Shown here: piece by piece, positions 4,368 through 21,385 of the stretch
How positions within the stretch are numbered: position 1 is the stretch's first letter
Layout of the letters: each line of letters opens with the position of its first letter
Assembly (NCBI GenBank): GCA_035455085.1
Contig: DATIFV010000163.1
Coordinates: 1 to 48,806 of the forward strand
Source of the DNA: Candidatus Methylomirabilota bacterium
Lineage (GTDB): Bacteria > Methylomirabilota > Methylomirabilia > Rokubacteriales > CSP1-6
Direction of reading: 5' to 3'
Length of the DNA stretch: 48,806 bases
Made by a program: the position numbers and the translations under genes
The notes under the pieces: model-generated
What the model saw: the letters and a program-made list of their open reading frames with translations, nothing else
What the model was told of the DNA's origin: nothing
Databases searched by the model: none

Positions 4368-6301
4368 GATACCCGCGCCTGTTCTCGGCCGGCCGCATCG
4401 GCCGTCTGGCCCTGCGGAACCGCATCCTCATGGCGCCGATGGAGAAGAACCTGGCGCTCCCGACCGGCGCGGTGAGCCGGCGGTACATCGACTACTGTGA
4501 GGCGCGGGCCGCGGGGGGAGCCGCGCTCCTCCTGCTCGAGTCGATGTACGTCCACCCGGCCGGCAAGAACCACCGCTACCAGCTCGGCCTGCACGACGAC
4601 GAGGTGGTGCCCGGCTACCGACGGCTCATCGAGGCGTGCCACCGCCACGGCGCGCTGGTCGCGGCGCAGCTGCAGTTCGCCGGGCGCGAGACCTCCGCGG
4701 CGGTCACCGGCACCCAGCCGGTCGCCCCCTCGGCGGTGCCGTGCACCGCCCTGACCGGCGGCGACGTGCCGCGCCCGCTCGAGGTCGAGGAGATCGCCGG
4801 CCTCGTGCGGGCCTTCGCGGAGGCGGCCCGGCGCGCGATCGCGGCGGGATTCGACGCGGTCGAGATCCACGGGGCGCACGGCTACCTGATCGGGCAGTTC
4901 CTCTCCCCCTACGCCAACCGCCGCGACGACGCCTACGGCGGCGACTTCGAGCGCCGCCTGCGCTTTCCCCTGGAGGTGATCGCGGCGGTGCGCGAGGTGG
5001 TGGGCACCCGCGCACCCCTGCTGTACCGGATCAGCGCCGACGAGCACGTCGACGGCGGCCTCACCCTCGCGGACGCCTGCCGGGTCGCGGCCCGCCTGGA
5101 GGCGGCCGGCATCGATCTGATCGACGTCTCGGCCGGCATCTACGAGTCGGCCCCGTGGATCGTGCAGCCCATGGAGATGGGGCAGGGCTGCCTGGCGCCG
5201 CTGGCGCGGGAGATCCGTCGCCACGTCCGCGTCCCGGTGAGCGTGGCGGGCCGCATCGGCGACGCGAGCGTGGCCGAGCACGTGCTCGAGGCCGGCGATG
5301 CCGACTTCGTGACCCTGGGGCGCGCGCTGCACGCCGACCCCGAGATGCCGCGCAAGAGCCGCGAGGGCCGCGAGGACGAGGTCTGCTCCTGCGTCGGGTG
5401 CCTCAAGTGCAGCGATCTGCTGGGGCAGAACGAGCCGGTGCTCTGCCTGGCCAACACGCACACCGGGCGCGAGCGGCAGTACGCGATCCGCGCCGCGGCG
5501 CGGGCGCAGCACGTGCTGGTCGTCGGGGCCGGCCCGGCCGGGCTCGAGGCCGCGCGGGTGCTCGCCCTGCGCGGGCACGCGGTGACCGTGCTGGAGCGGG
5601 CGGGCGAGCCCGGTGGCCAGCTCCGGCTGGCCCGGCTCGTGCCCGGCCGCGCGGACCTCGCGGGGCTGGTGACCTACCTGGCGGGGGCCGCGACGCGCGC
5701 GGGAGCCCGGATCCACACGGGCGTGGAGGCGACGGTGGACGACGTGCTCGCCCGCGCCCCGGACGCGATCGTGCTGGCCACCGGGGCGGCCCCCGGGGTC
5801 CCGTCGGTGCCCGGCCTCGAGCAGGGCCCCGCGGTGGACGCGTTCACGGTGCTCGCGCGGCCGGCCGGCGCGGTGAAGCGAGCGCTCGTGATGGGCGGGG
5901 GGATGCTGGGGGTCGGGGTGGCCCACGTCCTCGCCGAGCGCGGGGCCGAGGTGATCGTGGTCGAGCCCGGCGGGGAGCTGGCCGCCGAGCTGGGGGTGAG
6001 GCCGCGCTGGCAGCACGTGGCGGACCTGCGGTCGCGCGGGAACGTGACGATCCTCCTCGGCGCCACCGTCGAGGAGATCCATCCGGACGGCGCGCTGGTC
6101 CGGCGGGCGGGGGAGGACGTGAAGCTCCGCGGCCTGGACCTGGTGGTGCCGACGAGGCCGATGGTGCCGGCCGTGGACCTCGGCGAGGCGCTCAAGGCGC
6201 GGGCCGGCGGCCCGCCCGTCTTCGACATCGGCGACTGCGCGGTGCCGCGCACCGCCTTCGAGGCGATGCAGGAGGCGGCCGCGCTCGGGCATCGTCTCTG
6301 A
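4364..6301 (+). CDS. FMN/FAD/[4Fe-4S] NADH:flavin oxidoreductase, 2,4-dienoyl-CoA reductase (FadH)-like
   Basis: ATGA overlap with the cupin stop. OYE-like N-terminal TIM barrel (HGAHGYLIGQFLSP), Cys cluster CSCVGCLKCSDLL...LCLAN, and C-terminal GxGxxG (VVGAGPAGLEAA). Confidence 0.85.
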   Translation: MRYPRLFSAGRIGRLALRNRILMAPMEKNLALPTGAVSRRYIDYCEARAAGGAALLLLESMYVHPAGKNHRYQLGLHDDEVVPGYRRLIEACHRHGALVAAQLQFAGRETSAAVTGTQPVAPSAVPCTALTGGDVPRPLEVEEIAGLVRAFAEAARRAIAAGFDAVEIHGAHGYLIGQFLSPYANRRDDAYGGDFERRLRFPLEVIAAVREVVGTRAPLLYRISADEHVDGGLTLADACRVAARLEAAGIDLIDVSAGIYESAPWIVQPMEMGQGCLAPLAREIRRHVRVPVSVAGRIGDASVAEHVLEAGDADFVTLGRALHADPEMPRKSREGREDEVCSCVGCLKCSDLLGQNEPVLCLANTHTGRERQYAIRAAARAQHVLVVGAGPAGLEAARVLALRGHAVTVLERAGEPGGQLRLARLVPGRADLAGLVTYLAGAATRAGARIHTGVEATVDDVLARAPDAIVLATGAAPGVPSVPGLEQGPAVDAFTVLARPAGAVKRALVMGGGMLGVGVAHVLAERGAEVIVVEPGGELAAELGVRPRWQHVADLRSRGNVTILLGATVEEIHPDGALVRRAGEDVKLRGLDLVVPTRPMVPAVDLGEALKARAGGPPVFDIGDCAVPRTAFEAMQEAAALGHRL

Positions 6302-6321
6302 CCGCGGCGGCAGGCGGGGTC

Positions 6322-8004
6322 ATGACCGACAGGGATCGCGACGAGCAGATACGGCAGGCCCGGCAGCGCTGGGAAGCCGCGGTCGCGCGCGCCGCGGCGG
6401 GGGAGGGCGACGCCCCGCGCGCCGGGCAGCACGACCCGGACCTGACGGCGCGGGCGGTCTACACGCCGGCGGAGGCGGCCGGGCCGGACGCCGACTACCT
6501 GCGGGACCTCGGGTTCCCGGGCCAGTACCCGTTCACGCGCGGCATCTATCCCTCGATGTACCGGGGCCGGCTCTGGACGATGCGGCAGTACGCGGGCTTC
6601 GGGACCGCGCGGGAGACGAACCGGCGCTTCCGCTACATGCTCGAGCGGGGGATGACCGGGATCAACGTCGCCTTCGACCTCCCGACCCAGCACGGCCACG
6701 ATTCCGACGACCCCCGCGCGCGGGGGGAGGTGGGCAACGTGGGGGTGCCGGTGAGCTCGCTCCGCGACCTCGAGATCCTCTTCGAGGGCATCCCGCTCGC
6801 CGACGTCAGCCCGGCCAACGCCATCAACGCCCCGGCCGCGGTGATCCTGGCCATGTACGTGGCGCTCGCCGAGCGCCAGGGCCTCGCGCGGGAGCGGCTC
6901 TCCGGCAGCATCCAGAACGACATCCTCAAGGAGTTCATCGCCCGCGGGACCTACATCTTCCCGCCGCGCCCCTCGCTCCGCCTCGTCACCGACGTCATCG
7001 AGTACTGCGCGGGGTCCCTGCCGCGCTGGAACTTCATCAACGTCTGCGGCTATCACATGCGGGAGGCGGGCTCGACCCTGGTGCAGGAGGTGGCCTTCGC
7101 GCTGGCCGACGCGGTCACGTACACGCGCGCGGCGGTCGAGCGGGGGGTCGCGGTGGACCGCTTCGCCCCGCGCTTCGCGTTCAACTTCACCGCCGGCACC
7201 AACCTCTTCGAGGAGGCGGCGAAGTTCCGGGCCGCCCGCCGCCTGTGGGCCCGCCTCATGCGCGAGCGCTTCGGCGCCGAGCACCCGGCGAGCTGGGCGT
7301 TCCGGACCGGGGCCGGCTCCGGGGCGAGCCAGCTCACCGCCCAGCAGCCCGAGAACAACCTGATCCGGGTGACGCTCAACGCCCTCGCCGCGATCCTCGG
7401 CGGGGCCCAGTCGCTGCACACCGCGGCGTACGACGAGGCCCTCGCCCTGCCGACCGAGCGCTCGGTCAAGCTGGCCCTGCGCACCCAGCAGGTGCTGGCC
7501 CACGAGGCGGGCCTGACCGAGGTGATCGACCCGCTCGCCGGGTCCTACTACGTGGAGACGCTGACCACCGAGATCGAGGCGCGGGCCCGCGCGCTCATGG
7601 ACGAGGTCGAGCGCCGCGGCGGCGTGATCGCGGCCATCGAGTCCGGGTGGATCCAGCAGCAGATCGCCGACGCCTCCTGGGAGCGGCAGCGGCAGATCGA
7701 GTCCGGCGAGCGGGTGGTGGTCGGAGTGAACCGGTTCGTGGAGGAGGAGCCGGTGCGCGTGGACATCCATCGCCACGTGGAGGCGGTGGCCGCCGAGCGG
7801 GCCGCCGCGCTGCGGGCGCTGCGCCAGGAGCGGGACGCCCGCCGGGTGGCCCGCGCCCTCGACGGGCTGCGAGCGGCGGCGACGGGCGGAGCCAACGTCA
7901 TGCCGGCCCTCGTGGAGGCGGTCGGCGTCTACGCGACGATCGGCGAGATCTGCGGGACCCTGCGCGAGGTGTTCGGGGAGTACCGGGCGACCCCGGTCTA
8001 CTGA
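6322..8004 (+). CDS. methylmalonyl-CoA mutase family, large catalytic subunit (no B12-binding domain)
   Basis: ATG at 6322 within the 1122-aa ORF 4636..8004. Motifs FTRGIYPSMYRGRLWTMRQYAGFG and SIQNDILKEFIARGTYIF. Ends before any Rossmann B12 domain. Confidence 0.9.
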   Translation: MTDRDRDEQIRQARQRWEAAVARAAAGEGDAPRAGQHDPDLTARAVYTPAEAAGPDADYLRDLGFPGQYPFTRGIYPSMYRGRLWTMRQYAGFGTARETNRRFRYMLERGMTGINVAFDLPTQHGHDSDDPRARGEVGNVGVPVSSLRDLEILFEGIPLADVSPANAINAPAAVILAMYVALAERQGLARERLSGSIQNDILKEFIARGTYIFPPRPSLRLVTDVIEYCAGSLPRWNFINVCGYHMREAGSTLVQEVAFALADAVTYTRAAVERGVAVDRFAPRFAFNFTAGTNLFEEAAKFRAARRLWARLMRERFGAEHPASWAFRTGAGSGASQLTAQQPENNLIRVTLNALAAILGGAQSLHTAAYDEALALPTERSVKLALRTQQVLAHEAGLTEVIDPLAGSYYVETLTTEIEARARALMDEVERRGGVIAAIESGWIQQQIADASWERQRQIESGERVVVGVNRFVEEEPVRVDIHRHVEAVAAERAAALRALRQERDARRVARALDGLRAAATGGANVMPALVEAVGVYATIGEICGTLREVFGEYRATPVY

Positions 8005-8606
8005 TGAAGGGCAAGGGCGAGCACGGCCGCACCACGGTGGCGCAGCTGCAGCTGCTGCTGGAGGCGGAGCGCGTCGCGGCCGCGACCGTCTCCGGCCTCA
8101 TCCCGATGGCGGCGACCCCGGCAACGGGCCGGCTCCTCGAGAAGCTCCGGGACGACGAGGCGTGGTCGTGCGCCGGCCTGACCCGGGTCATCCGGCATCT
8201 CGGCGGCAAGGTGTCGCCCGAGGACGGGAGCGTCGCGCCGCGGGTGCGGGGCGGGTCGTCGGTCCGGGAGCGCCTCGGGGGGCTCACCCGCGACCAGGCC
8301 CGGGTCGTGAAGCGCCTCGATCGGATCCTGAGCGAGGGGCTCGACCGGGAGAGCGGAGGGTTCCTGCGTCAGATGCGGTCGCTGCACGCGGAGAACGTGC
8401 ACCGCTGCGAGGAGCTCATCGCGACGCTCCCGGCGGGCGCCGCGGCGGGGCGCACGCGGCGGATGAGGCCGGTGTCCTCCGAGAACTCGACCAGCAGGGC
8501 CTGGCCCGGGGCGATCGTCACCTCCTCGTCGAGCTGCCAGCGCCGGGGCGCCGCGCCCGCGGCACTGTCCGCAGACCCGTCCGCCAGGGTCACGCCGAGC
8601 CGGTAG
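8004..8606 (+). CDS. ferritin-like DUF6306-type protein with long unstructured tail
   Basis: The ATG overlaps the mutase stop (TGATG). LLLEAERVAA...DEAWSCAGL...LTRDQARVVKRL...HAENV matches the pattern I recall for DUF6306. The last ~55 codons look like read-through tail and overlap the convergent gene. Confidence 0.6.
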   Translation: MKGKGEHGRTTVAQLQLLLEAERVAAATVSGLIPMAATPATGRLLEKLRDDEAWSCAGLTRVIRHLGGKVSPEDGSVAPRVRGGSSVRERLGGLTRDQARVVKRLDRILSEGLDRESGGFLRQMRSLHAENVHRCEELIATLPAGAAAGRTRRMRPVSSENSTSRAWPGAIVTSSSSCQRRGAAPAALSADPSARVTPSR

Positions 8607-9001
8607 CGGCCGGGGCGTACCGCCAGCTCCTCGTAGGCGAAGGTGGGCCCGTCCCGGCGCAGGCCGCCCGGTGAGTAGCGCCGCTCGAGCAGCACGCGGC
8701 CGTCGAGCTCCACGCGCAGCACCGTGTCCGTGCGCCGGCCGGTCTGGGCCCGCTCCGGGCTGGTCGGCCGCATGTGGCGCGGTAGCTTCTCGATCTCCTC
8801 CATCGAGCGCGCGGGCCCGGCGTGCTCGAAGGCGGCCACGTGCTTGAAGGCGACCCGGATCATCGCGGCCTCCTGATCCGAGGCGGCCCACGGATACGCC
8901 GCGAGCGCCCCCAGGCCCCAGGAGACGGCGCCCAGCAGCAGGGCGAAGCCCGCGAGCCGGCCGGGCCGCGGGCGGCGATCCTCGACGGCGGGCGCGGTCA
9001 C
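8369..9001 (-). CDS. membrane-anchored hypothetical protein, last gene of the oxidase operon
   Basis: The GTG at 9001 overlaps the TGA of the upstream gene (GTGA). One N-terminal hydrophobic helix (LAGFALLLGAVSWGLGALAAY) followed by a beta-rich domain. The C-terminal ~30 codons look like tail. Confidence 0.55.
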   Translation of the reverse strand: MTAPAVEDRRPRPGRLAGFALLLGAVSWGLGALAAYPWAASDQEAAMIRVAFKHVAAFEHAGPARSMEEIEKLPRHMRPTSPERAQTGRRTDTVLRVELDGRVLLERRYSPGGLRRDGPTFAYEELAVRPGRYRLGVTLADGSADSAAGAAPRRWQLDEEVTIAPGQALLVEFSEDTGLIRRVRPAAAPAGSVAMSSSQRCTFSACSDRI

Positions 9002-10662
9002 CGGCCCGCCTCCTCTCGCTCCGGCGCGGACCGGCCCAGGTCGCGCTGGAAGTCGCCCACGTCGCGGAGGAGGCGGCCGACCTCGACCGGCGAGTACCAG
9101 CGCGCCCGCAGGCGTCCCTCCGGCGCGGCCTTCAGCGCGGGGAGACGCCGGCCGGTCAGCCGCTCGGCCAGCCACTGGCTGCCCTCGCGGAACGGGCAGT
9201 CCTCGGGAATGCAGCCGGCCACGAAGACGCCGGCGGCCCCGGCCTCTATCGTCTTCGTGATCATGTCCGGGTGGAGCATCCCGACGCAGGGGAGCCCCAT
9301 CACGGTGACGCCGGGCAGCGCGGCCAGCGTGCCGTCGGCGGCGAGCCGACCCGCGAGGCTCCGCATCATGCGGCAGGTGTAGACGAGCACGGGCGCCCGA
9401 CCTTCGCGGGCGCTCACGCCGCGCAGCCGGGCGGTCACCGCCTGGCCCAGCAGGCTCACCGGCTGATCCCCCAGCAGGATCCCGGCCGAATCGCAGGCGC
9501 CGACGCAGATGCCGCACCCCACGCACTTGGCGGGGTTCACCACCGCCACCTGCTTGTAGCGGGTGCCGTCGTGCCGCGGCACCATCACGATGGCCTCGTA
9601 GGGGCAGTCCTTCCAGCATCGCGTGCAGCCGGTGCACGCGATGTTCTCGACCCGGGCCCGCGCCGGTGCCGGCCCGCGCAGGACCCACGGCACCACGAGC
9701 GCGGCCGCCCCGCCGATCAGGAGCAGACCCCAGCCCCACCGGGGGTCCAGGCGCGTGAGCGGGAAGTAGAAGAAGTAGAACCAGTCGATGGGGATCGTCC
9801 CGGGCAGGCGCCCCAGGTCCGCCGGGGGGCCCGAGAGCGCCGGCCGCAGCACGCTCGCGATCAGCAGGGCGGCGCCGGTCACCGCGAGGACGATCCGCGG
9901 CGGCATGAAGCGCGCCCGGGAGAGGCGCATCACGTGCAGCCAGTAGGCCGCCCCGAGCAGCAGGGGGATCGTGACGTGGATGAAGAGCACGAGGAAGAAG
10001 AGGAAGTTCTGGATGCGCCCGGCGTCGAGGAAGGTGCGGACCAGCGGCTCGCCGAACACCGGCAGCACGTCGAGCAGCTTGGCGATGGTGACCGAGAGCA
10101 CCTGCGCCTGCATGTCCCAGACCAGCCAGTAGCCGGTGGCGCTCGTCACCCAGACGAGGCCGAGCAGGGTGAGCCCCGACACCCAGCCGATCCAGCGCGC
10201 TCCCCAGAACCGGTCGTTCAGGAACATCTTGAGGCCGTGCAGCGCGGCGGCCACGATCGCCGCGTCCGAGGCGTAGCGGTGGAGCGAGCGCATGAGGGCG
10301 CCGATGCCCCACGGCTGCGCCATGATCTCCTCGATGGAGCGGTGCGCCTCCTCGGTGCCCACGCGATAGAAGAGGAAGAGGTAGATGCCGGTCACCAGGG
10401 CCACCGCCAGCGAGAACACCGCGATGGTGCCGGTGTGGTAGAGCGGGTTGAGGGGCGCCGATACCAGCCGGTCGAGCAGCGCCTCGATCCACTGGTAGGC
10501 CGCTCCGGCCCGGAGGAGCGCGCGCCGGTGCAGGCGCTCGCGCGGGCCCGTGACCGGGAAGACGGGCGGGAGCGCGGCGACCGGCCCGAGCGGGAACGGC
10601 GGCGGCACCCCCGGCGAGCCGGACTGCACGCCGCTCGGCCCGTCGAGGACAGGGTCGTGCAC
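8998..10662 (-). CDS. fusion protein: di-haem cytochrome b (N-terminal domain) + 2x[4Fe-4S] ferredoxin + MvhD/FlpD-like domain
   Basis: The GTG at 10662 follows the Sco stop by 2 nt. Two His pairs are each separated by 13 residues (SLHRYASDAAIVAAALH; FIHVTIPLLLGAAYWLH). These are followed by CTGCTRCWKDCP and CVGCGICVGACD, then GLPCVGM...VAGCIPEDCPF. The exact start is uncertain. Confidence 0.8.
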   Translation of the reverse strand: MHDPVLDGPSGVQSGSPGVPPPFPLGPVAALPPVFPVTGPRERLHRRALLRAGAAYQWIEALLDRLVSAPLNPLYHTGTIAVFSLAVALVTGIYLFLFYRVGTEEAHRSIEEIMAQPWGIGALMRSLHRYASDAAIVAAALHGLKMFLNDRFWGARWIGWVSGLTLLGLVWVTSATGYWLVWDMQAQVLSVTIAKLLDVLPVFGEPLVRTFLDAGRIQNFLFFLVLFIHVTIPLLLGAAYWLHVMRLSRARFMPPRIVLAVTGAALLIASVLRPALSGPPADLGRLPGTIPIDWFYFFYFPLTRLDPRWGWGLLLIGGAAALVVPWVLRGPAPARARVENIACTGCTRCWKDCPYEAIVMVPRHDGTRYKQVAVVNPAKCVGCGICVGACDSAGILLGDQPVSLLGQAVTARLRGVSAREGRAPVLVYTCRMMRSLAGRLAADGTLAALPGVTVMGLPCVGMLHPDMITKTIEAGAAGVFVAGCIPEDCPFREGSQWLAERLTGRRLPALKAAPEGRLRARWYSPVEVGRLLRDVGDFQRDLGRSAPEREEAGR

Positions 10663-10664
10663 GC

Positions 10665-11561
10665 CTACCCCCGCTCCGCGAGCAGGCGCCCGAGTTCCTC
10701 GGCCTGGCGCTCCTCGGGATGGGCGAGGCCCCGATAGGTGAAGGCCAGGCGGCCGGCCCGATCGATGAAGGCCACGACGTTCTCGTGGGCGATCTCGCCG
10801 TCCGGCAGGGGCGCCCACTGCACCCGGTAGTCGCGGACGACCCGCCTCACCGTCGCGGGGTCGCCGCTCAGCAGATGCCAGCGCGGCCCGAGACCCCAGT
10901 GGGCGGCCGCCGCGGCCAGGGCGGCCGGCGTGTCCCGCTCTGGGTCGAGGCTCACCACCACGAAGGCGACCTCCGCCCGGGGCCGGCGGGCCTCGAGGGC
11001 CTTCAGGCGCTCGATCAGGAGCGGGCAGGAGGCGTGACAGCTCGCGTACGCGAACGTGAGCACCACCGGCCGGCCCCGGAAGCTCGCGAGCGAGACCGGC
11101 TGACCGCGATGGTCGACCAGACGGAGCTCCGGCGCCGGGGCCCCCTGGCGCAGCGGCGGCGGGAGCGTCGCCGGCGTGTAGCCCGTGCCGGAGGCCGAGA
11201 TCTCGCTGGTGGCGAGCAGCGAGGCGGCGAGGGCCATGAAGAGCAGCGGGGCCCCGATCGCGGCGAGCCGTCCCCCGCGCGCGCGGAGGAAGGCGCGCAG
11301 GTCGTCGCGATAGAACACGTACACCACCAGGGCGAAGAGGGGCGGCTGGAGCAGGGTCAGCAGGAGCGCGTCGAGACGGTAGTGCCGGGTCTCGGCGTTC
11401 CAGCCGAAGCATACGGTCAGGAGGGTATCGATCCACGGCGAGGATCCGCCCGCGAGCCCGGGGCCCAGCAGCAGGAAGGCGACGGTCCCGGCCCCCAGTC
11501 CGAAGATGGCCAGCACGAGGGCGGGCGCGAAGAGCCGGTGGGTCAGCAGGCCCGTCACCAT
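10665..11561 (-). CDS. SCO1/SenC copper chaperone with polytopic N-terminal membrane extension
   Basis: The ATG at 11561 overlaps the ctaB stop by 7 nt. Thioredoxin-fold motif FAYASCHASCP (CxxxC) plus a downstream His (IAHENV). About 120 N-terminal residues carry 3-4 hydrophobic segments. Confidence 0.8.
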   Translation of the reverse strand: MVTGLLTHRLFAPALVLAIFGLGAGTVAFLLLGPGLAGGSSPWIDTLLTVCFGWNAETRHYRLDALLLTLLQPPLFALVVYVFYRDDLRAFLRARGGRLAAIGAPLLFMALAASLLATSEISASGTGYTPATLPPPLRQGAPAPELRLVDHRGQPVSLASFRGRPVVLTFAYASCHASCPLLIERLKALEARRPRAEVAFVVVSLDPERDTPAALAAAAAHWGLGPRWHLLSGDPATVRRVVRDYRVQWAPLPDGEIAHENVVAFIDRAGRLAFTYRGLAHPEERQAEELGRLLAERG

Positions 11562-12424
11562 CTCCGGAGCCCCGCGTCCAGCACCACCCCCAGGAAGAGC
11601 AGCAGCAGGAACAGGTTCGAGGCGTGGAAGTTGGCCAGCGCGAGCCGCCGGTCCGTCGGCCGGCGGAGCAGCTCGAGGTTGCGGGCGAGGAGCAGGCCCC
11701 CGCCCGTCACCACGCCGACGAGCAGGTAGGGCCAGCCCAGCAGCCCCATCGCGAAGGGCAGCACGCTCGAGGCGAGCAGGCCCACCGTGTTCAGCAGGAT
11801 GCTGCGCGCGGTGCGGGCCTCGCCCTTCACCGCGGGCAGCATCGGGATCCGCGCGCCCGCGTAGTCGCTCTTGTAGGCAATGGCGAGCGACCAGAAGTGC
11901 GACGGGCTCCAGAAGAAGAGCACCGCCGCGAAGATGACCGGCGGCAGGCACAGCTCGGGACGGGCCAGCGCCCCGCCCGCGAGTACCGCGAAGGAGCCGG
12001 CGAGGCCCCCGATGACCACGTTGAGCCACGAGCGGCGCTTGAGCCAGATCGTGTAGATCACCACGTAGGTGAAGGCGCCGAGGAAGAGGTGCAGGGCCAC
12101 CAGGCGGTTCAGCCGCCACAGGGCCACGCTCACCGCGAGCGCGACGAGGCCGAGCCCCAGCGCCACGACGTGCCAGCCGTGGCGGATCTTTCCCGAGGGC
12201 AGGGGGCGCCGCGCGGTCCGGGGCATCCGGGCATCGAGATCGCGGTCGAGGAAGTGGTTGAGAGCCCCCGCGCCACCCGCCGCCATCACGGTCACCGCGA
12301 AGAGCAGCCCGAGCGACGGCAGCGACAGCCCCGCGGGCGCGGTGGCCAAGTAGCCCAGCACCGCGGCCATGCCGATGAAGGTTCCGACCCGGAGCTTGAG
12401 CGACTCGACGTAGGCGATGATCAT
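11555..12424 (-). CDS. ctaB: protohaem IX farnesyltransferase (haem O synthase)
   Basis: ATGA overlap with the upstream gene. UbiA-family motif NHFLDRDLDARMPRTARRPLPSG. 289 aa and polytopic. Confidence 0.9.
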   Translation of the reverse strand: MIIAYVESLKLRVGTFIGMAAVLGYLATAPAGLSLPSLGLLFAVTVMAAGGAGALNHFLDRDLDARMPRTARRPLPSGKIRHGWHVVALGLGLVALAVSVALWRLNRLVALHLFLGAFTYVVIYTIWLKRRSWLNVVIGGLAGSFAVLAGGALARPELCLPPVIFAAVLFFWSPSHFWSLAIAYKSDYAGARIPMLPAVKGEARTARSILLNTVGLLASSVLPFAMGLLGWPYLLVGVVTGGGLLLARNLELLRRPTDRRLALANFHASNLFLLLLFLGVVLDAGLRRW

Positions 12425-13848
12425 CGCGCACCTCCCCGTCGCAGGAGCGGGAGGCCCATGTTGATCACGAAGGCGAGCCCGCCCACGATGGCCAGCACCG
12501 AGCCCGCGCCCATCAGGTTCATCCCGATGAGCGCCTGCGCGTTGGCCCAGCTGAAGCCGAAGGTCTTGCGCGGCGCCCCGTGGCCGCCCGCCCAGTGCAT
12601 GCCGGCCATGATGCCGAGCAGCCCCAGCCCGTAGAGGTACGGCTGCCAGCGCGCCCAGCGCTCGCTCAGCGGGTGCCGGCCGGTCAGGCCCAGCAGCAGA
12701 GGGGTCAGGGCCATGTAGGAGAGGGTCACCGCGCCCACCATGCCGTGGTAGTGGGCGGGTACCCGCGTGTCCTGGGTGAAGCCGATGAGGCCCATCACGC
12801 CGCCGATCGCGAAGAGCGCGAACGAGACCACGGTGCCGCCGAAGAGGGGGCTGCCCCACGGCAGCGGCCGGGGCGCGGCGGCCACCACCGCCACCGCCAT
12901 GAAGAGCAGGGGCACCGCGCCCGCTCCGAGCCCGCCGAACGTCAGGATGGTGATCAGGTGATTGACGAGCAGCTCCTCGGGGCGCCACAGGAGATAGGCC
13001 GCGCCGGAGGCGACCGCGAACGGCGCCAGGATGGCCAGCAGCAGGCGCACGACGCGCCGGGCCGACGGGGCCATCCCGAGCGCCACCGCGAGCGCCACCA
13101 GCCAGCCCGTGGCCATGCCGGCCACGTGGAGGAACTGGAGCACGTGGCCGCCGCCCCAGACCACCGCCCGGAGCGTGTAGCCGAACGGCACCGCAGGGTC
13201 CGCGGCCGCGGCCGCGCGCATGAAGGCCGCGGCGGCCACGAGGACGGCGAGCGCCGCCACCGCCATCGCGAGGCCCTCGGGCGATTCGACCGCCACTCGC
13301 CCGCGCTCGCGCCGCAAGAGCACCGCCGCGGCTCCGCCCAGGTAGGCGGCGGCCTGGATGCCGACGCCGGCCCCGAGCAGGACGAGGCCGGTCCAGAAGA
13401 ACGGATGGTCGATCACCGGCAGGTAATCGTTCAGGTACGGCTGGCCCGAGGCGAGGAAGGCGGGCACCGCCATGGCCGCCGACCCGACCACCGACAGCCC
13501 GAGGGCGGCCCACGAGGCGGGGGCGCTCAGCGGATAGCCCGAGCGCCAGGCCACGTACACCCAGAGCACGCCCGCGAAGGCGACGAACCAGACCGTGAAG
13601 GCGAACGTCACGTGCGAGGTGAGCGCGAGACGGAACTGGGCGGCGTCGAAGAGGGTGTGGACCACCGGGGTGCGGGCGAAGGCGGCCAGCATGGCGAAGA
13701 AGCCCGCCACCACCAGCGAGCCCAGCGCCAGCCCGAGCCAGCCCACGATCAGGCGGCGCACGGGGCTCGGTACCGGCGAGGCCGGGTCGGCGCGCCGGCC
13801 GCGGTCGCGCGGCCGGCGATCGAGGAGGAAGGTCGCGTCGGGATTCAT
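12421..13848 (-). CDS. degenerate haem-copper oxidase subunit-I-like membrane protein (CuB His pair absent)
   Basis: 475 aa, starting 10 nt after the subunit I stop with a GGGGGTG RBS. Aligns by eye to the adjacent subunit I: the helix II His (TSHVTFAF), helix VI His (WGGGHVLQF) and helix X AHYHGMVGAV are retained. HHLLVDPQL of subunit I corresponds to AYLLWRPEEL here. Confidence 0.7.
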   Translation of the reverse strand: MNPDATFLLDRRPRDRGRRADPASPVPSPVRRLIVGWLGLALGSLVVAGFFAMLAAFARTPVVHTLFDAAQFRLALTSHVTFAFTVWFVAFAGVLWVYVAWRSGYPLSAPASWAALGLSVVGSAAMAVPAFLASGQPYLNDYLPVIDHPFFWTGLVLLGAGVGIQAAAYLGGAAAVLLRRERGRVAVESPEGLAMAVAALAVLVAAAAFMRAAAAADPAVPFGYTLRAVVWGGGHVLQFLHVAGMATGWLVALAVALGMAPSARRVVRLLLAILAPFAVASGAAYLLWRPEELLVNHLITILTFGGLGAGAVPLLFMAVAVVAAAPRPLPWGSPLFGGTVVSFALFAIGGVMGLIGFTQDTRVPAHYHGMVGAVTLSYMALTPLLLGLTGRHPLSERWARWQPYLYGLGLLGIMAGMHWAGGHGAPRKTFGFSWANAQALIGMNLMGAGSVLAIVGGLAFVINMGLPLLRRGGAR

Positions 13849-13858
13849 TGCGCACCCC

Positions 13859-15532
13859 CTACTTGATGATCCAGATGGCGGCCAGCCATTTCCAGTTGAG
13901 GAAGTAGTAGATGACGAAGGACGCCAGGAACACGAAGACGAGCACGAGGGTCCCCTTGATGGGCACGTGCTGCCCGCGGTCCTGGGGCAGCGCGGCCAGC
14001 GGCACCGCGCCCGCGGTGTCCGGCACCCGCCGCCCGAAGAGCACCGAGCCCACCGTGATCACCACGTAGAGGGCGCCGCCGGCCAGCGCGAAGAGCCCGC
14101 CCACGCCCATGATGCCGAGGAAGGCGAAGGCGGCCGCTTCCACCGGCGGCTGGAAGATCGACGAGGTGAACTGCACGTCCCAGTGCCGCCGCGGGATCGC
14201 GTAGGACCCGGCGGTGGTCATGCCGCCGATGAAGATGGTCATGCCGATGGCGAAGAGGTAGATCTGGGTCGTGGCGAGCTTCACCGAGATCAGATGCCGC
14301 CGGAAGATGAGCGGCACCACGTAGTACGTGAGTCCCATGAACGCGATGGTGGTGCCGGCGACCACGGTGGCGTGGAAGTGGCCGGTGATGCGCAGCGTGT
14401 TGTGGGAGATGATGTTGACCTGCTCGGCGCCGAAGGTGACGCCGGTGATGCCGCCGATGAAGCCGAAGAGCACCAGCGACAGGGCCAGCGCCGCGAAGCC
14501 CGGATTGCCCCACGGGGCCTTGGCCAGCCACTCGAAGAGCCCCTTGGTGAGCCCCTTCTTCCGCTGTGCGACCTCCACCGACGCGGGCACCGTCATCCCG
14601 TGGACCATGCTCGCGAGCACGGCCAGGTACATGCCGTAGCTGGTGTTCCAGATCTTCCACGCCGGCGAGAGCTGGGGATCCACGAGCAGATGGTGGGCGG
14701 AGGCCAGGTTGATGAAGAGGATGTAGAGGAGGAAGGCGGATCGGCAGACCTTCTCGTTCACCGGGGTCGCCCCCACCGTGAGGGTGGCCAGGAGGTACCA
14801 GATCGTGACCATGGCGCTCACGTTGATCTGCTGGGAGCTGTGCCCGAGGCCCCACCAGACCAGGCGGTAGATGCCGGGATCGATGGTCTGGATGATCCCC
14901 AGCGACCAGAGCCACGTGGGGACATAAATGATGGCCCCGTGGGCCAGGGTGACCACCGCGATGATGCCCGCGGTGGCGGCCCCGAAGGTCACCAGCGGGA
15001 TCGAGCCCTCGTACGTCCGCTCGGCCCGCGCGACCACCAGGCTCGCGAAGAAGTTGCAGACGCCGACGAGGGCGCCGACCGCGAACAGGATCCAGCCCAG
15101 GTAGAAGTAGGACACCGCCTGGAGGGGGGCGTAGGAGGTCATCATCACGTCGGCGCGGCCCGCGAGGATCGCGACGTCGATGAGCACCGAGCCTGCCACC
15201 ATGAGCGCGAACCCGAGCCAGCCCACCCGCGGCCAGGCGAGGCGGCTTCCCAGCACGATGGGCCCGGCAAAGTAGAGCACCGCGATCTCGAAGAAGATGA
15301 TCCAGAAGATCAGCATGTTGATGCCGTGGAAGGTCAGCGCTCGGTAGAAGCTCGTCGGGTCCAGCAGGTGGACGGCGGGCCAGCGGGTCAGCAGCACGAG
15401 AATTGCCGCGATGCCGCCGAAGAGGATGGAGAACACGCCGGCCACCGCGTGGACCTTGATGAGGCGCTCGGCGTGGTTGTGGACTCGGAGGCCGGTCTGG
15501 GCGCACGTTCTGAAGACGGCTTCGGTTGCCAT
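13859..15532 (-). CDS. haem-copper oxidase superfamily subunit I, B-family (ba3)-like, lacking the cross-linked Tyr
   Basis: 557 aa. AGGAGG RBS overlaps the subunit II stop. Metal ligands: LTFHGINML, WWGLGHSSQQ, ASAHHLLVDP, ITGHFHATV. Collinear with my recollection of Thermus CbaA, including LFEWLAKAPWGNPGF. Confidence 0.9.
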   Translation of the reverse strand: MATEAVFRTCAQTGLRVHNHAERLIKVHAVAGVFSILFGGIAAILVLLTRWPAVHLLDPTSFYRALTFHGINMLIFWIIFFEIAVLYFAGPIVLGSRLAWPRVGWLGFALMVAGSVLIDVAILAGRADVMMTSYAPLQAVSYFYLGWILFAVGALVGVCNFFASLVVARAERTYEGSIPLVTFGAATAGIIAVVTLAHGAIIYVPTWLWSLGIIQTIDPGIYRLVWWGLGHSSQQINVSAMVTIWYLLATLTVGATPVNEKVCRSAFLLYILFINLASAHHLLVDPQLSPAWKIWNTSYGMYLAVLASMVHGMTVPASVEVAQRKKGLTKGLFEWLAKAPWGNPGFAALALSLVLFGFIGGITGVTFGAEQVNIISHNTLRITGHFHATVVAGTTIAFMGLTYYVVPLIFRRHLISVKLATTQIYLFAIGMTIFIGGMTTAGSYAIPRRHWDVQFTSSIFQPPVEAAAFAFLGIMGVGGLFALAGGALYVVITVGSVLFGRRVPDTAGAVPLAALPQDRGQHVPIKGTLVLVFVFLASFVIYYFLNWKWLAAIWIIK

Positions 15533-15541
15533 GGGGGCCTC

Positions 15542-16069
15542 CTACTCGACCGTGATCTTGCCCACCATCTGGTGGTGCCCGATCCCGCAGAACTCGTTGC
15601 AGACCACGAAGACCTCGCCGCTCGTCGTCGGGGTGATGGTGAGCACGTACTCGTAGCCGGGCAGGACCATGAAGTTGAGGTTCAGGGGGAAGAGCGAGAA
15701 GCCGTGGACGAGGTCCATGGAGGACAGGTGCAGGCGGTAGGTCTCGCCCTTCTTGAGCTTGAGTGCCGGGTACCACTGCCAGAGCCTCCCCAGCATGTAG
15801 ACGTCCTGCGCGGGATCGGGGGCGATCACCGGCAGCCCCTTCTCTTCCCCGACCTTCGGTCCGGACTCGACGAAGGCCTCCACCTTCTCCATGTACTGCG
15901 CCGGGGTGGTCCGGTAGGTCTCGAAGGACGGGTTCTGGCCGCCCTTGAGATGCCAGAGCGGCATCATCGCGAAGAGGATGAGGCACCACAGGAGCGCGAT
16001 CGCGAGCCAGATCTTCTCGCTCGCGTCGACTTTCTTCCACCACACGCCCTTGAGAGTCTGCAGGCTCAT
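15542..16069 (-). CDS. haem-copper oxidase subunit II, short single-TM cupredoxin with complete CuA site
   Basis: 175 aa. DLVHGFSL plus CNEFCGIGHHQM (C-x3-C-x3-H-x2-M). No cytochrome c domain. Confidence 0.9.
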   Translation of the reverse strand: MSLQTLKGVWWKKVDASEKIWLAIALLWCLILFAMMPLWHLKGGQNPSFETYRTTPAQYMEKVEAFVESGPKVGEEKGLPVIAPDPAQDVYMLGRLWQWYPALKLKKGETYRLHLSSMDLVHGFSLFPLNLNFMVLPGYEYVLTITPTTSGEVFVVCNEFCGIGHHQMVGKITVE

Positions 16070-16078
16070 GGCGGTCTC

Positions 16079-16240
16079 CTACCTCGCAACCGGGATGGTG
16101 GCGATCTCGAACAGGCCCCAGATCGTGTAGAAGACCACCGGGACCGTGAGCCCGAGCACCAGCAGCAGGAAGATGTTGTCGAAGAACACCTGGGCCAGCG
16201 GCACCCGGTCGTCGTCCTTGGCGGTCTCTTTGTCGGCCAT
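16079..16240 (-). CDS. 53-aa single-TM protein, putative oxidase subunit IIa-like; not in ORF track
   Basis: ATG at 16240 preceded by GGAGGGG. MADKETAKDDDRVPLAQVFFDNIFLLLVLGLTVPVVFYTIWGLFEIATIPVAR. The stop lies 9 nt before the subunit II ATG. Confidence 0.6.
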   Translation of the reverse strand: MADKETAKDDDRVPLAQVFFDNIFLLLVLGLTVPVVFYTIWGLFEIATIPVAR

Positions 16241-16317: not shown

Positions 16318-16335
16318 CTATGACCTGGGTCATAG
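16318..16335. promoter_or_regulatory. 18-bp palindrome CTATGACCTGGGTCATAG, putative Crp/Fnr-type operator of the oxidase operon
   Basis: Perfect 8+2+8 palindrome. Its centre is ~86 nt upstream of the ATG at 16240. TACGCT (TAnnnT) lies 21 nt downstream on the - strand, a class-II-like geometry. Confidence 0.6.
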
Positions 16336-16413: not shown

Positions 16414-17478
16414 CTAGTGCCCGCCCGTCCCGTGGGTGCCCGGCACCAGCGTCCGGAAGATGCCGGGCTGCTCGGCGCCCGCCACCTCCAGGACCCCGAG
16501 GGCGCCCTTCTCCATCGCCCGCACGATGCTGTGGTCCACGAGCAGGAAGCGCCCCGGCACCTGCACCGTCATCTCCACGATGGCCGCGCCGCCCGCCGGG
16601 ATCAGGGTGGTCTGCACGTTCTGGGCCGGAGCGCCGGCGCCCAGCGCGCCCTCGGTGTAGACGTGGTCGAAGATCTCGCCGATCACGTGGAAGGAGGAGA
16701 TGAGGTTGGGCCCGCCGTTGCCCACGAAGAGCCGGACCTGCTCGCCGACCTTCGCGTGGATCGCCCCCTCGCCCGCGAGCGCGCCCATCTTGCCGTTGAA
16801 CACCACGTACTCGGGCCGCTCCGCGGTCAGCTTGGCCGGATCGAGCGGCTGGAGCCCCGGCGCGAGCGTCCTGCCCTTGGTATAGAACTCGCCCTGCATG
16901 ACGTAGTACTCGCGGTCCACGCGGGGCAGCCCCTTCTCGGGCTCGACGAGGATCAGCCCGTACATGCCGTTGGCGATGTGCGCGGGCACGCTCGGGGTCG
17001 CGCAGTGATAGACGTAGAGCCCGGGGTTCAGCGCCTTGAACTCGAAGGCGCCTTCCTGGCCCGGCCCCAGCTGGGTCACCGCCGCGCCGCCGCCCGGCCC
17101 GGTCACCGCGTGCAGGTCGATCGAGTGCGGGTGCATGCTCTTCTCCGCGTTCCTGAGGCGGATCTGCACGACGTCACCCACGCGCACCCGGACGAAGGGA
17201 CCCGGCACCGTGCCGCCGAAGGTCCAGAACGTGTACCGCACGCCGTCGGCGAGGGTGCCCGTGACCTCGGTGGTCTCGAGATCGACGATCACCTTCGCGT
17301 TGCCGGGGCGGTCCACCGGCGGCGGCACGAGCGGGGCCGAGGTGAGGATGGCCTTCACTTCCGGGAGCGCGGCGGGCTCGGCGGCCTTGTCGCGGGCCTG
17401 GCTCTGCCAGATCATCGCGCCCGCCACCAGCAGCCCGGCCGTTGCCAGCGTCGTCATCGTGGTCAACCCCCGTCTCAT
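16414..17478 (-). CDS. nirK: copper-containing nitrite reductase
   Basis: 354 aa with a signal-like N-terminus. Type-2 Cu motif [14 protein letters not shown] and type-1 Cu motif [29 protein letters not shown]. Confidence 0.92.
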
Positions 17479-19115: not shown

Positions 19116-19116
19116 G

Positions 19117-21269: not shown

Positions 21270-21340
21270 GCGGGGGTCTTTCCCTCGAGCGCGCCGAGCA
21301 GGGTGACGGCGACCGGGGCGTCGCTGCACTCGTGAGCCAT
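21266..21340 (-). CDS. 24-codon upstream ORF (MAHECSDAPVAVTLLGALEGKTPA) coupled to the DUF1858 gene; not in ORF track
   Basis: ATG at 21340 with GAGGAGG 6 nt upstream. Its TGA overlaps the ATG at 21269 (ATGA). Confidence 0.45.
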   Translation of the reverse strand: MAHECSDAPVAVTLLGALEGKTPA

Positions 21341-21385
21341 GTCGATCCTCCTCGCTGCCACCCTAGCGCCGGATCGTCGGGCTCC

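What the first reader, a model, noticed from the sequence alone, without database searches (positions are those of the whole stretch)
8998..10662. Cytochrome b fused to a 2x[4Fe-4S] ferredoxin and an MvhD-like domain inside a haem-copper oxidase operon
One polypeptide combines a bc-type di-haem cytochrome b N-terminal domain (two His pairs, each separated by 13 residues), two more TM helices, a dicluster ferredoxin and an MvhD/FlpD-type domain. By helix count the Fe-S part should be cytoplasmic. MvhD domains normally wire heterodisulfide-reductase-type or hydrogenase modules, not terminal oxidases. Translational coupling places it in the same operon as the oxidase, haem O synthase and Sco. It could therefore be an unconventional quinol-linked or cytoplasmic electron-input or -output module for this enzyme. 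No cytochrome c or cupredoxin donor is encoded nearby.
Basis: partly seen in the sequence, partly recalled or inferred. Interest (0 to 1): 0.7.

Follow-up and report, generated by a model that had tools for sequence, protein, structure and literature searches.

The report
Cytochrome b–iron-sulfur partner of NO reductase
The gene is real and belongs to a widespread, undescribed protein family: a membrane cytochrome b joined to cytoplasmic iron-sulfur domains, almost always encoded beside eNOR-type nitric oxide reductases or related oxidases, and most likely part of their electron supply.

Summary
Window 8998-10662 (-) encodes a 554-aa protein with three parts: a di-haem cytochrome b6-like domain of six TM helices, a 2x[4Fe-4S] ferredoxin, and an MvhD/FlpD domain with four aligned Cys.

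Three points change the picture:
1. The neighbouring "oxidase" carries Gln at the cross-link Tyr position (GHSSQQ). That is the eNOR nitric oxide reductase signature. A bona fide NirK lies just upstream.
2. The gene is only part of the module. The downstream 210-aa gene (8369-9001, GTGA overlap) is fused to the C-terminus in 107 of 149 family representatives.
3. The linkage is not local. In 80 diverse metagenome loci, 41 of 41 with enough upstream flank carry an HCO subunit I. All 49 scorable subunit I genes have the eNOR Gln. Sco lies directly upstream in 56 of 63.

A sister clade carries an extra C-terminal cytochrome c and follows Tyr-containing ba3-like oxidases. No Rieske protein is co-encoded.

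The best reading is a Rieske-less transmembrane electron wire that feeds CuA. A role in Sco-linked maturation is not excluded. I found no paper describing the family, and PGAP calls it "hydrogenase iron-sulfur subunit".

The parts
8998..10662 (-). Target gene: 554-aa cytochrome b6-like (6 TM) / 2x[4Fe-4S] ferredoxin / MvhD-like fusion protein
   Evidence: Pfam. Ligand conservation. AF2 pLDDT 87.4. Identical to NCBI protein P0001.
9919..10473 (-). Residues 64-248: di-haem four-helix bundle (helices A-D). His128/142 and His229/243.
   Evidence: PF00033 1e-19. Best PDB sequence match is cytochrome b6, 6rqf_I, E 4.8e-16. The His are present in 145-149 of 150 representatives.
9682..9897 (-). Residues 256-327: TM helices 5 and 6, equivalent to cytochrome b helices E and F. 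The periplasmic loop carries P291-I-D293-W (PEWY-like).
   Evidence: Foldseek aligns 284-310 columns to full-length bc1 cytochrome b. hhalign matches residues 262-314 to b6f subunit IV residues 49-100, but weakly (E 0.002, probability 13%). Asp293 is present in 143 of 150 representatives.
9487..9657 (-). Residues 336-392: dicluster ferredoxin, CxxCxxCxxxCP and CxxCxxCxxxC
   Evidence: Fer4_7 and Fer4_9. The Cys are present in at least 146 of 150 representatives. This domain and the MvhD domain together match the C-terminus of HdrA2, residues 569-772, at E 9e-23.
9040..9390 (-). Residues 425-541: MvhD/FlpD-like domain, presumed [2Fe-2S] site, Cys430/459/484/489
   Evidence: PF02662 1.3e-14. Alignment to MvhD 5ODC_D at E 1.7e-8 with all four Cys matched.
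8369..9001 (-). Downstream 210-aa gene: cytoplasmic N-terminus, one TM helix, periplasmic beta-sandwich. It is the split-off C-terminal domain of the family.
   Evidence: GTGA start/stop overlap. Fused to the C-terminus in 107 of 149 representatives. AF2 pLDDT 82.6. No Pfam, NCBIfam or significant PDB fold match.
10665..11561 (-). Sco/SenC copper chaperone with CxxxC and a ~130-aa N-terminal extension that reads as three hydrophobic (candidate TM) segments
   Evidence: PF02630 1e-21. Start codon. A Sco gene lies directly upstream of the fusion gene in 56 of 63 loci.
11555..12424 (-). Haem O synthase (CtaB/CyoE, UbiA family)
   Evidence: PF01040 1e-48. ATGA overlap with the upstream gene.
12421..13848 (-). 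Divergent HCO subunit-I-like paralogue. It keeps the haem ligands but lacks two of the three CuB/FeB His.
   Evidence: PF00115 9.5e-11. Ligand survey across loci.
13859..15532 (-). HCO subunit I with the eNOR signature: GHSSQQ, with Gln at the position of Tyr237 of T. thermophilus ba3
   Evidence: Alignment to ba3 structures at E 2e-40. Family signature from PMC8756737 Table A4. The other five canonical His motifs are present.
15542..16069 (-). HCO subunit II with an intact CuA motif, CNEFCGIGHHQM
   Evidence: PF00116. Sequence.
16080..16240 (-). 53-aa single-TM ORF that opens the operon. A small ORF of 50-81 aa occupies the same position in related loci.
   Evidence: Sequence. Small ORFs of 50-81 aa in L001 and L003 and of 53 aa in L025.
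16414..17478 (-). Copper nitrite reductase NirK
   Evidence: TIGR02376, 340.5 bits against a cut-off of 296.3. Sequence.
16321..16332 (.). TGACCTGGGTCA palindrome with the TGA-N6-TCA core of CRP/FNR-type sites, upstream of the operon
   Evidence: A consensus match only; no function was tested.

Best explanation
The target and the downstream gene together form a Rieske-less cytochrome b-iron-sulfur membrane module. It acts as a dedicated electron-transfer partner of CuA-containing haem-copper enzymes of the B lineage. In this window the partner is an eNOR-type nitric oxide reductase working next to NirK.

Shown:
- A chain of cofactor sites spans the membrane: MvhD-type [2Fe-2S], two [4Fe-4S], a cytoplasm-side haem b and a periplasm-side haem b.
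- The periplasmic face keeps the Qo-pocket elements of cytochrome b: the end of helix C (GYWLVWD), the cd helices, and an ef loop with an almost invariant Asp.
- A TM-anchored periplasmic beta-sandwich follows.

Inferred:
- The periplasmic end hands single electrons to the CuA domain of eNOR subunit II. The transfer is either direct or, in the sister clade, through a fused class-I cytochrome c.
- The most parsimonious use of every cofactor is a linear wire. It carries electrons from a cytoplasmic reductant docked at the ferredoxin/MvhD end out to CuA. In some lineages a NuoF-like NADH flavoprotein is co-encoded.
- The Qo-like pocket allows quinol as an alternative or additional input.
- NO made by NirK would then be reduced without depending on a bc1 complex or a soluble cytochrome c, neither of which is encoded in this window.
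For: 1. All cofactor ligands are conserved across at least 145 of 150 divergent representatives. The AF2 model is confident, with the cytochrome b fold through helix F.
2. Gene linkage is strict across phyla. In 41 of 41 loci with at least 4 kb upstream an HCO subunit I is present, and in 39 of 41 it lies directly upstream on the same strand. All 49 scorable subunit I genes have GHxSQQ. The same cluster occurs in Rokubacteria, a Deltaproteobacteria MAG and a cultured Defluviimonas plasmid.
3. Rosetta-stone evidence for electron output to a periplasmic carrier. Ten of 150 representatives add a C-terminal cytochrome c. All three that I examined follow Tyr-containing ba3-like oxidases with CuA, and in two of them (L110, L111) Sco is not next to the fusion gene.
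4. A NuoF-like gene lies next to the fusion gene in three loci. It sits between two fusion paralogues in L025 and L049, and between a DS-like fragment and a fusion gene in L051, whose contig is cut upstream.
5. The ferredoxin-plus-MvhD unit matches the inter-protein electron connector at the C-terminus of HdrA2.
6. No Rieske protein gene was found in the 80 loci. No cytochrome c is encoded in the window, although subunit II keeps CuA.
7. The nitrogen-oxide context is consistent: NirK here, and NirS, NnrS, NrfAH or Rrf2 in related loci.
Against: - There is no biochemical evidence for any member.
- The direction of electron flow and the use of quinol are inferred.
- R. marinus eNOR was purified as two subunits and is active with ascorbate/TMPD (PMC11214002).
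- eNOR-type clusters of T. thermophilus and T. roseum lack the protein. It is therefore not needed for catalysis itself.
- In the eNOR-linked clade the gene sits among the maturation genes: Sco is directly upstream in 56 of 63 loci, and CtaB is nearby.
- Exporting electrons from cytoplasm to periplasm dissipates membrane potential, which is an odd design for a respiratory enzyme.
- The PEWY-region homology is weak by hhalign (probability 13%).
- I could not inspect model coordinates, so haem-to-cluster distances are unknown.
Confidence: 0.5

Rival explanations
1. Maturation factor. The module moves reducing equivalents from the cytoplasm across the membrane to the periplasmic Sco and beta-sandwich domains. 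There they keep the Sco and CuA cysteines reduced, or reduce Cu(II) to Cu(I), for assembly of the CuA centre. The logic resembles CcoG (a cupric reductase with 2x[4Fe-4S] and an Ig-like domain) or eukaryotic Fre/Steap metalloreductases.
For: - Sco lies directly upstream in 56 of 63 loci.
- The gene lies after CtaB and Sco in this operon.
- The two eNOR-type clusters without the fusion gene also lack Sco.
- The Sco proteins here carry an unusual N-terminal extension that reads as several TM helices.
- His54, His76 and Met77 of the beta-sandwich are conserved within the closer relatives.
- A PCuAC-like gene and two Sco genes lie beside the fusion gene in L026.
Against: - The cytochrome c-fused clade sits directly after subunit I. 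In two of the three loci examined (L110, L111) Sco is not next to it. A fused class-I cytochrome c is an electron carrier, not a chaperone.
- The candidate metal ligands of the beta-sandwich are present in only 45-57% of 108 divergent representatives.
- There is no Pfam match to FixG_C or PCuAC and no significant fold match.
- The family is restricted to B-lineage enzymes, although A-type oxidases need CuA assembly too.
Confidence: 0.22
2. Quinol-oxidising, electron-bifurcating module. Quinol is oxidised at the Qo-like pocket. One electron goes to the very high-potential CuA/eNOR (or ba3) branch. The other is driven through the two b haems into the Fe-S chain and reduces a low-potential cytoplasmic acceptor such as ferredoxin or NAD+. 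In effect it is a bc1-type bifurcation whose low-potential branch ends in the cytoplasm instead of at a Qi site.
For: - The Qo-pocket elements and Asp293 are conserved.
- The Fe-S domains occupy the place of the C-terminal helices that help form the Qi side.
- A NuoF-like partner is co-encoded in some loci.
- The ferredoxin-plus-MvhD unit is borrowed from the bifurcating HdrA2 family.
- From my own knowledge: anammox Rieske/cytochrome b complexes with NAD(P) oxidoreductase subunits have been proposed to work this way.
Against: - There is no Rieske protein or other gated high-potential acceptor.
- Nothing shows that quinol binds.
- The potential of the immediate acceptor (CuA or haem c) is no higher than that of a Rieske centre, so reaching ferredoxin potential against the membrane potential is doubtful.
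- No acceptor gene is conserved in the clusters.
Confidence: 0.12
3. Nar-like redox-loop arm. Quinol is oxidised at the periplasmic face and both electrons cross to the cytoplasmic Fe-S domains. They feed an unlinked cytoplasmic reductase. The module is only co-regulated with eNOR as part of an NO or denitrification response.
For: - The architecture parallels NarI-NarH, HdrE-HdrD and DsrM-DsrK: a di-haem cytochrome b plus cytoplasmic Fe-S (own knowledge).
- One Nitrospinota locus carries the gene without any HCO nearby.
Against: - 41 of 41 surveyed loci carry the HCO, nearly always directly upstream on the same strand, often with overlapping stop and start codons.
- The periplasmic beta-sandwich and the cytochrome c extensions would have no role.
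- No cytoplasmic reductase is conserved in the clusters.
Confidence: 0.08
4. Haem-modification helper. The module removes or supplies electrons for an O2-independent conversion of haem O to the haem A(s) used by eNOR and ba3 enzymes. It would replace CtaA, which is absent from these clusters.
For: - eNOR contains haem As, and many eNOR operons carry CtaA (PMC11214002).
- The fusion-bearing clusters carry CtaB but no CtaA was reported in any annotated locus.
- The fusion-less T. roseum cluster has a 600-aa protein annotated as haem o synthase, about twice the usual CtaB length. I read its N-terminal half as CtaA-like by eye, without running a domain search.
Against: - The fold is a classical cytochrome b with bis-His haems, not a CtaA-like substrate pocket.
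- A better candidate for haem modification lies nearby: a TIGR04053 radical SAM related to AhbD and NirJ.
- The complementary distribution rests on very few cases.
Confidence: 0.04

Closest known systems
Cytochrome b6 / cytochrome b of Rieske-cytochrome b complexes (b6f, bc1)
   Same: - The fold is shared through helices A-F (Foldseek E ~1e-6, 284-310 aligned columns).
- The four haem-ligand His have the same spacing.
- The RxxH, GYxLxW and cd-helix motifs are present.
- There is a PEWY-like loop with a conserved acidic residue.
   Different: - No Rieske protein and no cytochrome c1 or f gene is co-encoded.
- Helices G and H are missing.
- The C-terminus continues into cytoplasmic Fe-S domains where the Qi side would be completed.
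- The gene is linked to an HCO rather than standing as an independent complex III.
MvhD of the Mvh-Hdr complex, and the ferredoxin-MvhD C-terminus of HdrA2 (Methanosarcina)
   Same: - Residues 333-546 match HdrA2 residues 569-772 as one unit (E 9e-23).
- Four Cys align with MvhD in 5ODC.
- The presumed role is the same: an Fe-S connector between redox partners.
   Different: - It is membrane-anchored by a cytochrome b.
- No hydrogenase, HdrA flavoprotein or HdrBC is nearby.
- It scores far below the HdrA2 family cut-off (80 against 1100 bits).
- The CxxC Cys of the MvhD CCxxC motif is absent.
NarI-NarH, HdrE-HdrD and DsrM-DsrK type modules (di-haem cytochrome b plus cytoplasmic Fe-S protein)
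   Same: It works like them in outline: two b haems span the membrane and connect a periplasm-side site to cytoplasmic Fe-S clusters (own knowledge of these systems).
   Different: - The cytochrome b fold is different (b6 type, not NarI type).
- No CCG or molybdoenzyme partner is present.
- It is a single polypeptide.
- It is linked to a periplasm-fed CuA enzyme.
CcoG/FixG, the cupric reductase for cbb3 oxidase assembly
   Same: It is analogous: a membrane protein with a cytoplasmic 2x[4Fe-4S] domain and a C-terminal beta-sandwich, encoded beside an HCO operon (own knowledge).
   Different: - CcoG has no haems.
- No sequence or fold relation was detected. There is no FixG_C Pfam hit and no significant Foldseek hit.
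eNOR (for the partner enzyme)
   Same: - Gln replaces the cross-link Tyr.
- The three CuB-type His and the haem His are present.
- Subunit II carries CuA.
- A nitrite reductase is adjacent.
   Different: Characterised eNOR (R. marinus) was described as a two-subunit enzyme. The papers I could read mention no cytochrome b-FeS partner.

Membership tests
Cytochrome b/b6 (PF00033) | Profile match above the curated cut-off | tested here: met
   71.6 bits against 27.2. Best PDB hit is cytochrome b6 at E 4.8e-16.
Cytochrome b/b6 (PF00033) | Two His pairs, on helices B and D, each 13 residues apart, ligating two b haems | tested here: met
   H128/H142 and H229/H243 are present in 145-149 of 150 representatives. 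Haem binding itself was not tested.
Rieske/cytochrome b complex (bc1/b6f) | Co-encoded or associated Rieske [2Fe-2S] protein and a c-type or f-type cytochrome | tested here: not met
   No Rieske ISP hit was found in 80 loci. One unrelated CxH...CxxH ORF was found. None of the operon genes I scanned in this window is a Rieske protein. A cytochrome c is present only as a C-terminal fusion in about 7% of representatives.
Rieske/cytochrome b complex (bc1/b6f) | C-terminal domain or subunit IV with the PEWY Qo motif and helices E-G(H) | tested here: inconclusive
   Helices E and F and a PxDW loop are present, and Asp293 is found in 143 of 150 representatives. hhalign support is weak (E 0.002, probability 13%). 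Helices G and H are absent.
MvhD/FlpD (PF02662) | Profile match above the cut-off, with conserved Cys for the [2Fe-2S] cluster | tested here: met
   54.7 bits against 22.3. Four Cys align to 5ODC_D.
MvhD/FlpD (PF02662) | Association with Mvh-type hydrogenase or HdrA | tested here: not met
   No such genes appear in the window operon or in the surveyed clusters. The PGAP name 'hydrogenase iron-sulfur subunit' is therefore misleading.
Dicluster 2x[4Fe-4S] ferredoxin | Two CxxCxxCxxxC(P) motifs | tested here: met
   C343/346/349/353 and C380/383/386/390 are present in at least 146 of 150 representatives.
HdrA2 (NF040770) | Full-length match above the cut-off, including the FAD-binding HdrA core | tested here: not met
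   80.3 bits against a cut-off of 1100. Only the C-terminal 200 residues match.
ExtP b-type cytochrome (NF040969) | Match above the equivalog cut-off | tested here: not met
   86.6 bits against 290.
eNOR (partner enzyme, 13859-15532) | Gln at the position of the cross-linked Tyr of oxygen-reducing HCOs | tested here: met
   GHSSQQ aligned to ba3 GHPI(V/N)Y. The signature comes from PMC8756737. It holds for all 49 linked subunit I genes.
eNOR (partner enzyme, 13859-15532) | NO reductase activity without O2 reductase activity | not testable with these tools
   Shown only for the R. marinus enzyme (PMC11214002).
CcoG/FixG cupric reductase | FixG_C Ig-like domain and FixG-type membrane domain | tested here: not met
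   No Pfam hit for the downstream protein even at E<=5. No significant PDB fold match.

The most novel reading that the evidence does not exclude
The module would be a third kind of quinol-oxidising 'complex III', with no Rieske protein, hard-wired to a CuA enzyme. It would split the two quinol electrons. One goes to NO (or O2) reduction. The other is pushed through the b haems into cytoplasmic Fe-S clusters to make low-potential reductant (ferredoxin or NAD(P)H). Denitrification or respiration would then be coupled directly to the production of reducing power.
Probability: 0.12. Interest if true: 0.95.

Novelty: new variant of a known kind. Interest (0 to 1): 0.72.

Why it matters
eNOR-type enzymes are reported to be among the most common NO reductases in environmental data, and therefore a source of N2O (PMC11214002). 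Their physiological electron supply is unknown, because the characterised enzyme was assayed only with artificial donors.

A conserved partner that spans the membrane, present in many phyla and also in a clade of ba3-like oxidases, would define that supply route. It may also represent a new way of connecting cytoplasmic or quinol electrons to CuA enzymes without bc1, ACIII or soluble cytochrome c.

The finding also corrects a systematic misannotation ("hydrogenase iron-sulfur subunit"). A cultured host, Defluviimonas sp. SAOS-178_SWC (plasmid NZ_CP156080.1), makes the question experimentally testable.

Tried and rejected
1. Sco-cytochrome b fusion protein P0187 as Rosetta-stone evidence. Rejected: the linker has no TM helix, so a periplasmic Sco domain cannot precede the cytoplasmic N-terminus. 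It is probably a gene-calling or sequencing artefact.
2. A universal metal site in the periplasmic beta-sandwich. His54, His76 and Met77 looked invariant among close relatives, but they are present in only 45-57% of 108 divergent representatives.
3. Homology of the beta-sandwich to FixG_C, PCuAC or cupredoxins. There is no Pfam or NCBIfam hit, and Foldseek gives only generic beta-sandwiches at E>=2e-3.
4. The fusion as an exclusive partner of eNOR. Rejected: cytochrome c-fused members follow Tyr-containing ba3-like oxidases.
5. The fusion as a universal eNOR subunit. Rejected: the T. thermophilus and T. roseum eNOR-type clusters lack it.
6. 'orf1' of the norSY-senC-orf1 (sNOR) cluster of ammonia oxidisers as a possible relative. 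I could not test this, because no sequence was at hand and the locus-tag search found nothing useful.
It returned almost only Rokubacteria, so I could not survey named genomes such as R. marinus.
8. Literature searches for the family found no description. PMC8756737 lists one such ORF only as a string of domains.


Full report
**Where the window comes from and how the operon is laid out.** The window is a 73% GC contig of a Methylomirabilota (Rokubacteria) MAG. Because GC is so high, most listed ORFs are spurious. I therefore used third-position GC by frame to define the genes. On the minus strand the genes run as follows:
- NirK, 16414-17478
- a 53-aa TM ORF, 16080-16240
- HCO subunit II, 15542-16069
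- HCO subunit I, 13859-15532
- a divergent subunit-I-like gene, 12421-13848
- haem O synthase, 11555-12424
- Sco, 10665-11561
- the target, 8998-10662
- a 210-aa gene, 8369-9001

From subunit II onward the junctions are either a few bases apart or overlapping: ATGA, ATGGTGA, a 2-nt gap and GTGA. Beyond 8369 the genes converge from the plus strand.

- Pfam places Cytochrome_B at residues 64-248, a dicluster ferredoxin at 343-391 and FlpD at 425-541. All three score above the curated cut-offs.
- The His pairs 128/142 and 229/243, the eight ferredoxin Cys and four MvhD-type Cys are conserved in close homologues and in 150 representatives that are at most 50% identical to one another.
- The four MvhD-type Cys align with Cys of MvhD in the Mvh-Hdr structure 5ODC.
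- AlphaFold2 with a 133-sequence alignment gives pLDDT 87.4 and pTM 0.85, with six TM helices followed by the Fe-S domains.
- Foldseek aligns 284-310 columns to full-length bc1 cytochrome b. That is more than the four-helix N-domain, so TM5 and TM6 are helices E and F.
- hhalign against b6f subunit IV aligns residues 262-314 to the end of helix E, the PEWY loop and helix F, though weakly (E 0.002, probability 13%).
- Asp293 in that loop is present in 143 of 150 representatives.

**The partner enzyme is an eNOR, not an oxidase.** Subunit I aligns to T. thermophilus ba3 at E 2e-40. It has Gln where ba3 has the cross-linked Tyr237 (GHSSQQ against GHPIxY). According to PMC8756737 (Table A4 and Methods), Gln at this site distinguishes eNOR from the oxygen reductases (Tyr), sNOR and bNOR (Asn), gNOR (Asp) and cNOR and qNOR (Glu). 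The R. marinus eNOR reduces NO but not O2 (PMC11214002). Subunit II keeps the CuA motif. The gene just upstream passes the NCBIfam equivalog cut-off for copper nitrite reductase. The wider neighbourhood holds a CRP/FNR-family regulator and a TGA-N6-TCA palindrome in front of the operon.

**The target is only part of a larger module.** A search of 1.84 billion cluster representatives found 428 proteins at E<1e-30. Most of the best 150 are 650-790 aa long. An iterated search with the 210-aa downstream protein matched the C-terminal 130-180 residues of 107 of 149 representatives. The Rokubacteria, and a Defluviimonas plasmid, therefore carry a split version of a roughly 700-aa protein. That protein consists of:
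- a six-TM cytochrome b
- a ferredoxin domain
- an MvhD-like domain
- one further TM helix
- a periplasmic beta-sandwich

The beta-sandwich model is confident (pLDDT 82.6). It has no Pfam or NCBIfam family and no significant PDB neighbour. Its candidate metal ligands are not conserved family-wide. Ten representatives add a class-I cytochrome c after the beta-sandwich.

**Gene linkage.**
- Rokubacterial relatives at 68-70% identity keep the same eight-gene cluster. It is flanked by NrfAH and an NnrS-like gene (a faint Pfam hit) in one case and by NirS and haem d1 genes in another.
- A Deltaproteobacteria MAG has the same gene set in a different order, next to Rrf2, NirS and NnrS.
- One metagenome scan with a diverse profile returned 80 loci at 28-57% identity. 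I annotated them by tblastn with proteins from this window and from related loci.
- All 41 loci with at least 4 kb upstream carry an HCO subunit I. In 39 of them it lies directly upstream on the same strand.
- Sco lies directly upstream in 56 of 63 loci.
- NirS or NirK lies within the locus in 10 of 29 long loci.
- All 49 subunit I genes that could be scored have GHxSQQ.
- No Rieske protein is encoded in these loci.
- A cultured organism has the cluster on a plasmid: Defluviimonas sp. SAOS-178_SWC, NZ_CP156080.1.

There are exceptions in both directions:
- A Nitrospinota locus has the gene with no HCO nearby.
- The eNOR-type clusters (GHGAQQ) of T. thermophilus pHB5018d and the T. roseum megaplasmid have neither Sco nor the fusion.
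- The three cytochrome c-fused members I looked at lie immediately after Tyr-containing, CuA-bearing ba3-like oxidases (GHPLVY). In two of them (L110, L111) Sco is not adjacent.
- A NuoF-like NADH flavoprotein gene lies next to the fusion gene in three loci. It sits between two fusion paralogues in L025 and L049.

**Mechanism.** What is shown is a conserved set of cofactor sites. They can form a chain from a cytoplasmic MvhD-type cluster, through two [4Fe-4S] clusters and two b haems, to a periplasmic face that keeps the Qo-pocket elements. The module is also strictly linked to CuA-type B-lineage HCOs.

What is inferred is that the module passes electrons to CuA. The fused cytochrome c in the ba3-linked clade is the strongest argument for this. 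A class-I cytochrome c is the normal donor to CuA, and a gene fusion places it at the periplasmic end of the module.

I favour a linear wire from a cytoplasmic reductant to CuA, because it gives every cofactor a role and fits the NuoF-like neighbours. From my own knowledge, a bacterial precedent for a cytoplasm-to-periplasm route through b haems is the Fre-MsrQ-MsrP system. Quinol input at the Qo-like pocket is possible.

A bifurcating variant, with one electron going out to CuA and one going in to the Fe-S chain, is the most novel reading. It lacks a gated high-potential acceptor and a conserved cytoplasmic acceptor.

The main rival is a Sco-coupled maturation role. It is supported by gene order and by the joint absence of Sco and the fusion in Thermus and Thermomicrobium. 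It is weakened by the cytochrome c-fused clade, by the poorly conserved beta-sandwich ligands and by the restriction of the family to B-lineage enzymes.

**Comparison with known systems and novelty.**
- The cytochrome b part is a member of the b/b6 superfamily, but not of a Rieske/cytochrome b complex.
- The Fe-S part is a copy of the ferredoxin-MvhD connector found at the C-terminus of HdrA2, but it is not an Hdr or a hydrogenase subunit.
- In outline it works like NarI-NarH or HdrE-HdrD modules.
- It is analogous to CcoG, with no detectable relation.

I found no paper describing the family or its link to eNOR. NCBI's pipeline names it "hydrogenase iron-sulfur subunit". I rate it a new variant of a known kind, namely a membrane cytochrome b plus Fe-S redox module. 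It is of high interest because it bears on how the most common environmental NO reductases are fed. The function itself remains unproven.

Noticed in passing
window 12421-13848 (-): The second HCO subunit-I-like gene keeps the TM2 His, the GHxLQ His and the HYH motif, so both haem ligands are retained. The HH pair, which supplies two of the three CuB/FeB ligands, is not conserved in 21 related loci. It looks like an HCO-derived di-haem membrane protein without a binuclear centre. It is present in many fusion-bearing clusters but not all.
   Followed up: partly
window 17970-19124 (-): A radical SAM/SPASM protein passes the NCBIfam TIGR04053 cut-off (451.8 against 395). Its next best matches are AhbD and NirJ, which are haem-modifying enzymes. 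The same family is annotated beside the fusion-less eNOR-type cluster of T. thermophilus pHB5018d (L108). Radical SAM genes also flank the Rokubacteria clusters L001 and L003. It is a possible eNOR-associated haem-modification enzyme.
   Followed up: partly
window 16321-16332 and 21595-22779 (+): The palindrome TGACCTGGGTCA, with a TGA-N6-TCA CRP/FNR-type core, lies about 80 bp upstream of the first ORF of the operon. A CRP/FNR-family regulator gene lies about 5 kb away. This is a consensus match only.
   Followed up: no
window 10665-11561 (-): The Sco protein has an N-terminal extension of about 130 aa that reads as three hydrophobic (candidate TM) segments, instead of the usual single anchor. 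The Sco genes of related clusters are similarly long (274-312 aa).
   Followed up: no
L026 6568-8859; L110 4152-6461; L111 2525-4903: Family members with an extra C-terminal cytochrome c lie directly after Tyr-containing (GHPLVY) ba3-like oxidases with CuA, not after eNORs.
   Followed up: yes
L025 6617-12121; L049 6479-11300; L051 294-3084: A NuoF-like gene (Complex1_51K, SLBB and NADH_4Fe-4S domains) lies next to the fusion gene. It sits between two paralogous fusion genes in L025 and L049. In L051 the contig is cut upstream.
   Followed up: partly
L108 (T. thermophilus pHB5018d) 6307-8665; L109 (T. roseum megaplasmid) 6259-10640: These eNOR-type clusters (GHGAQQ, with CuA present) lack both Sco and the fusion. 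The T. roseum cluster instead has a 600-aa gene annotated as haem o synthase. I read its N-terminal half as CtaA-like by eye, without a domain search.
   Followed up: partly
window 8004-8606 (+) against 8369-9001 (-): A plus-strand ORF with good codon bias up to about 8400 runs on to 8606. It overlaps the 3' end of the convergent downstream gene by about 240 nt. Its true stop, or a frameshift, was not resolved. It has no family match.
   Followed up: no
window 20427-21362 (-): A DUF1858 plus DUF2249 (TusA-like) protein lies between the radical SAM gene and the CRP/FNR regulator. Its function is unknown.
   Followed up: no
P0187 (ENA contig, 676 aa): This apparent Sco-cytochrome b-ferredoxin fusion protein has no TM helix in its linker, so the topology is implausible. 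It is probably a gene-call artefact.
   Followed up: partly
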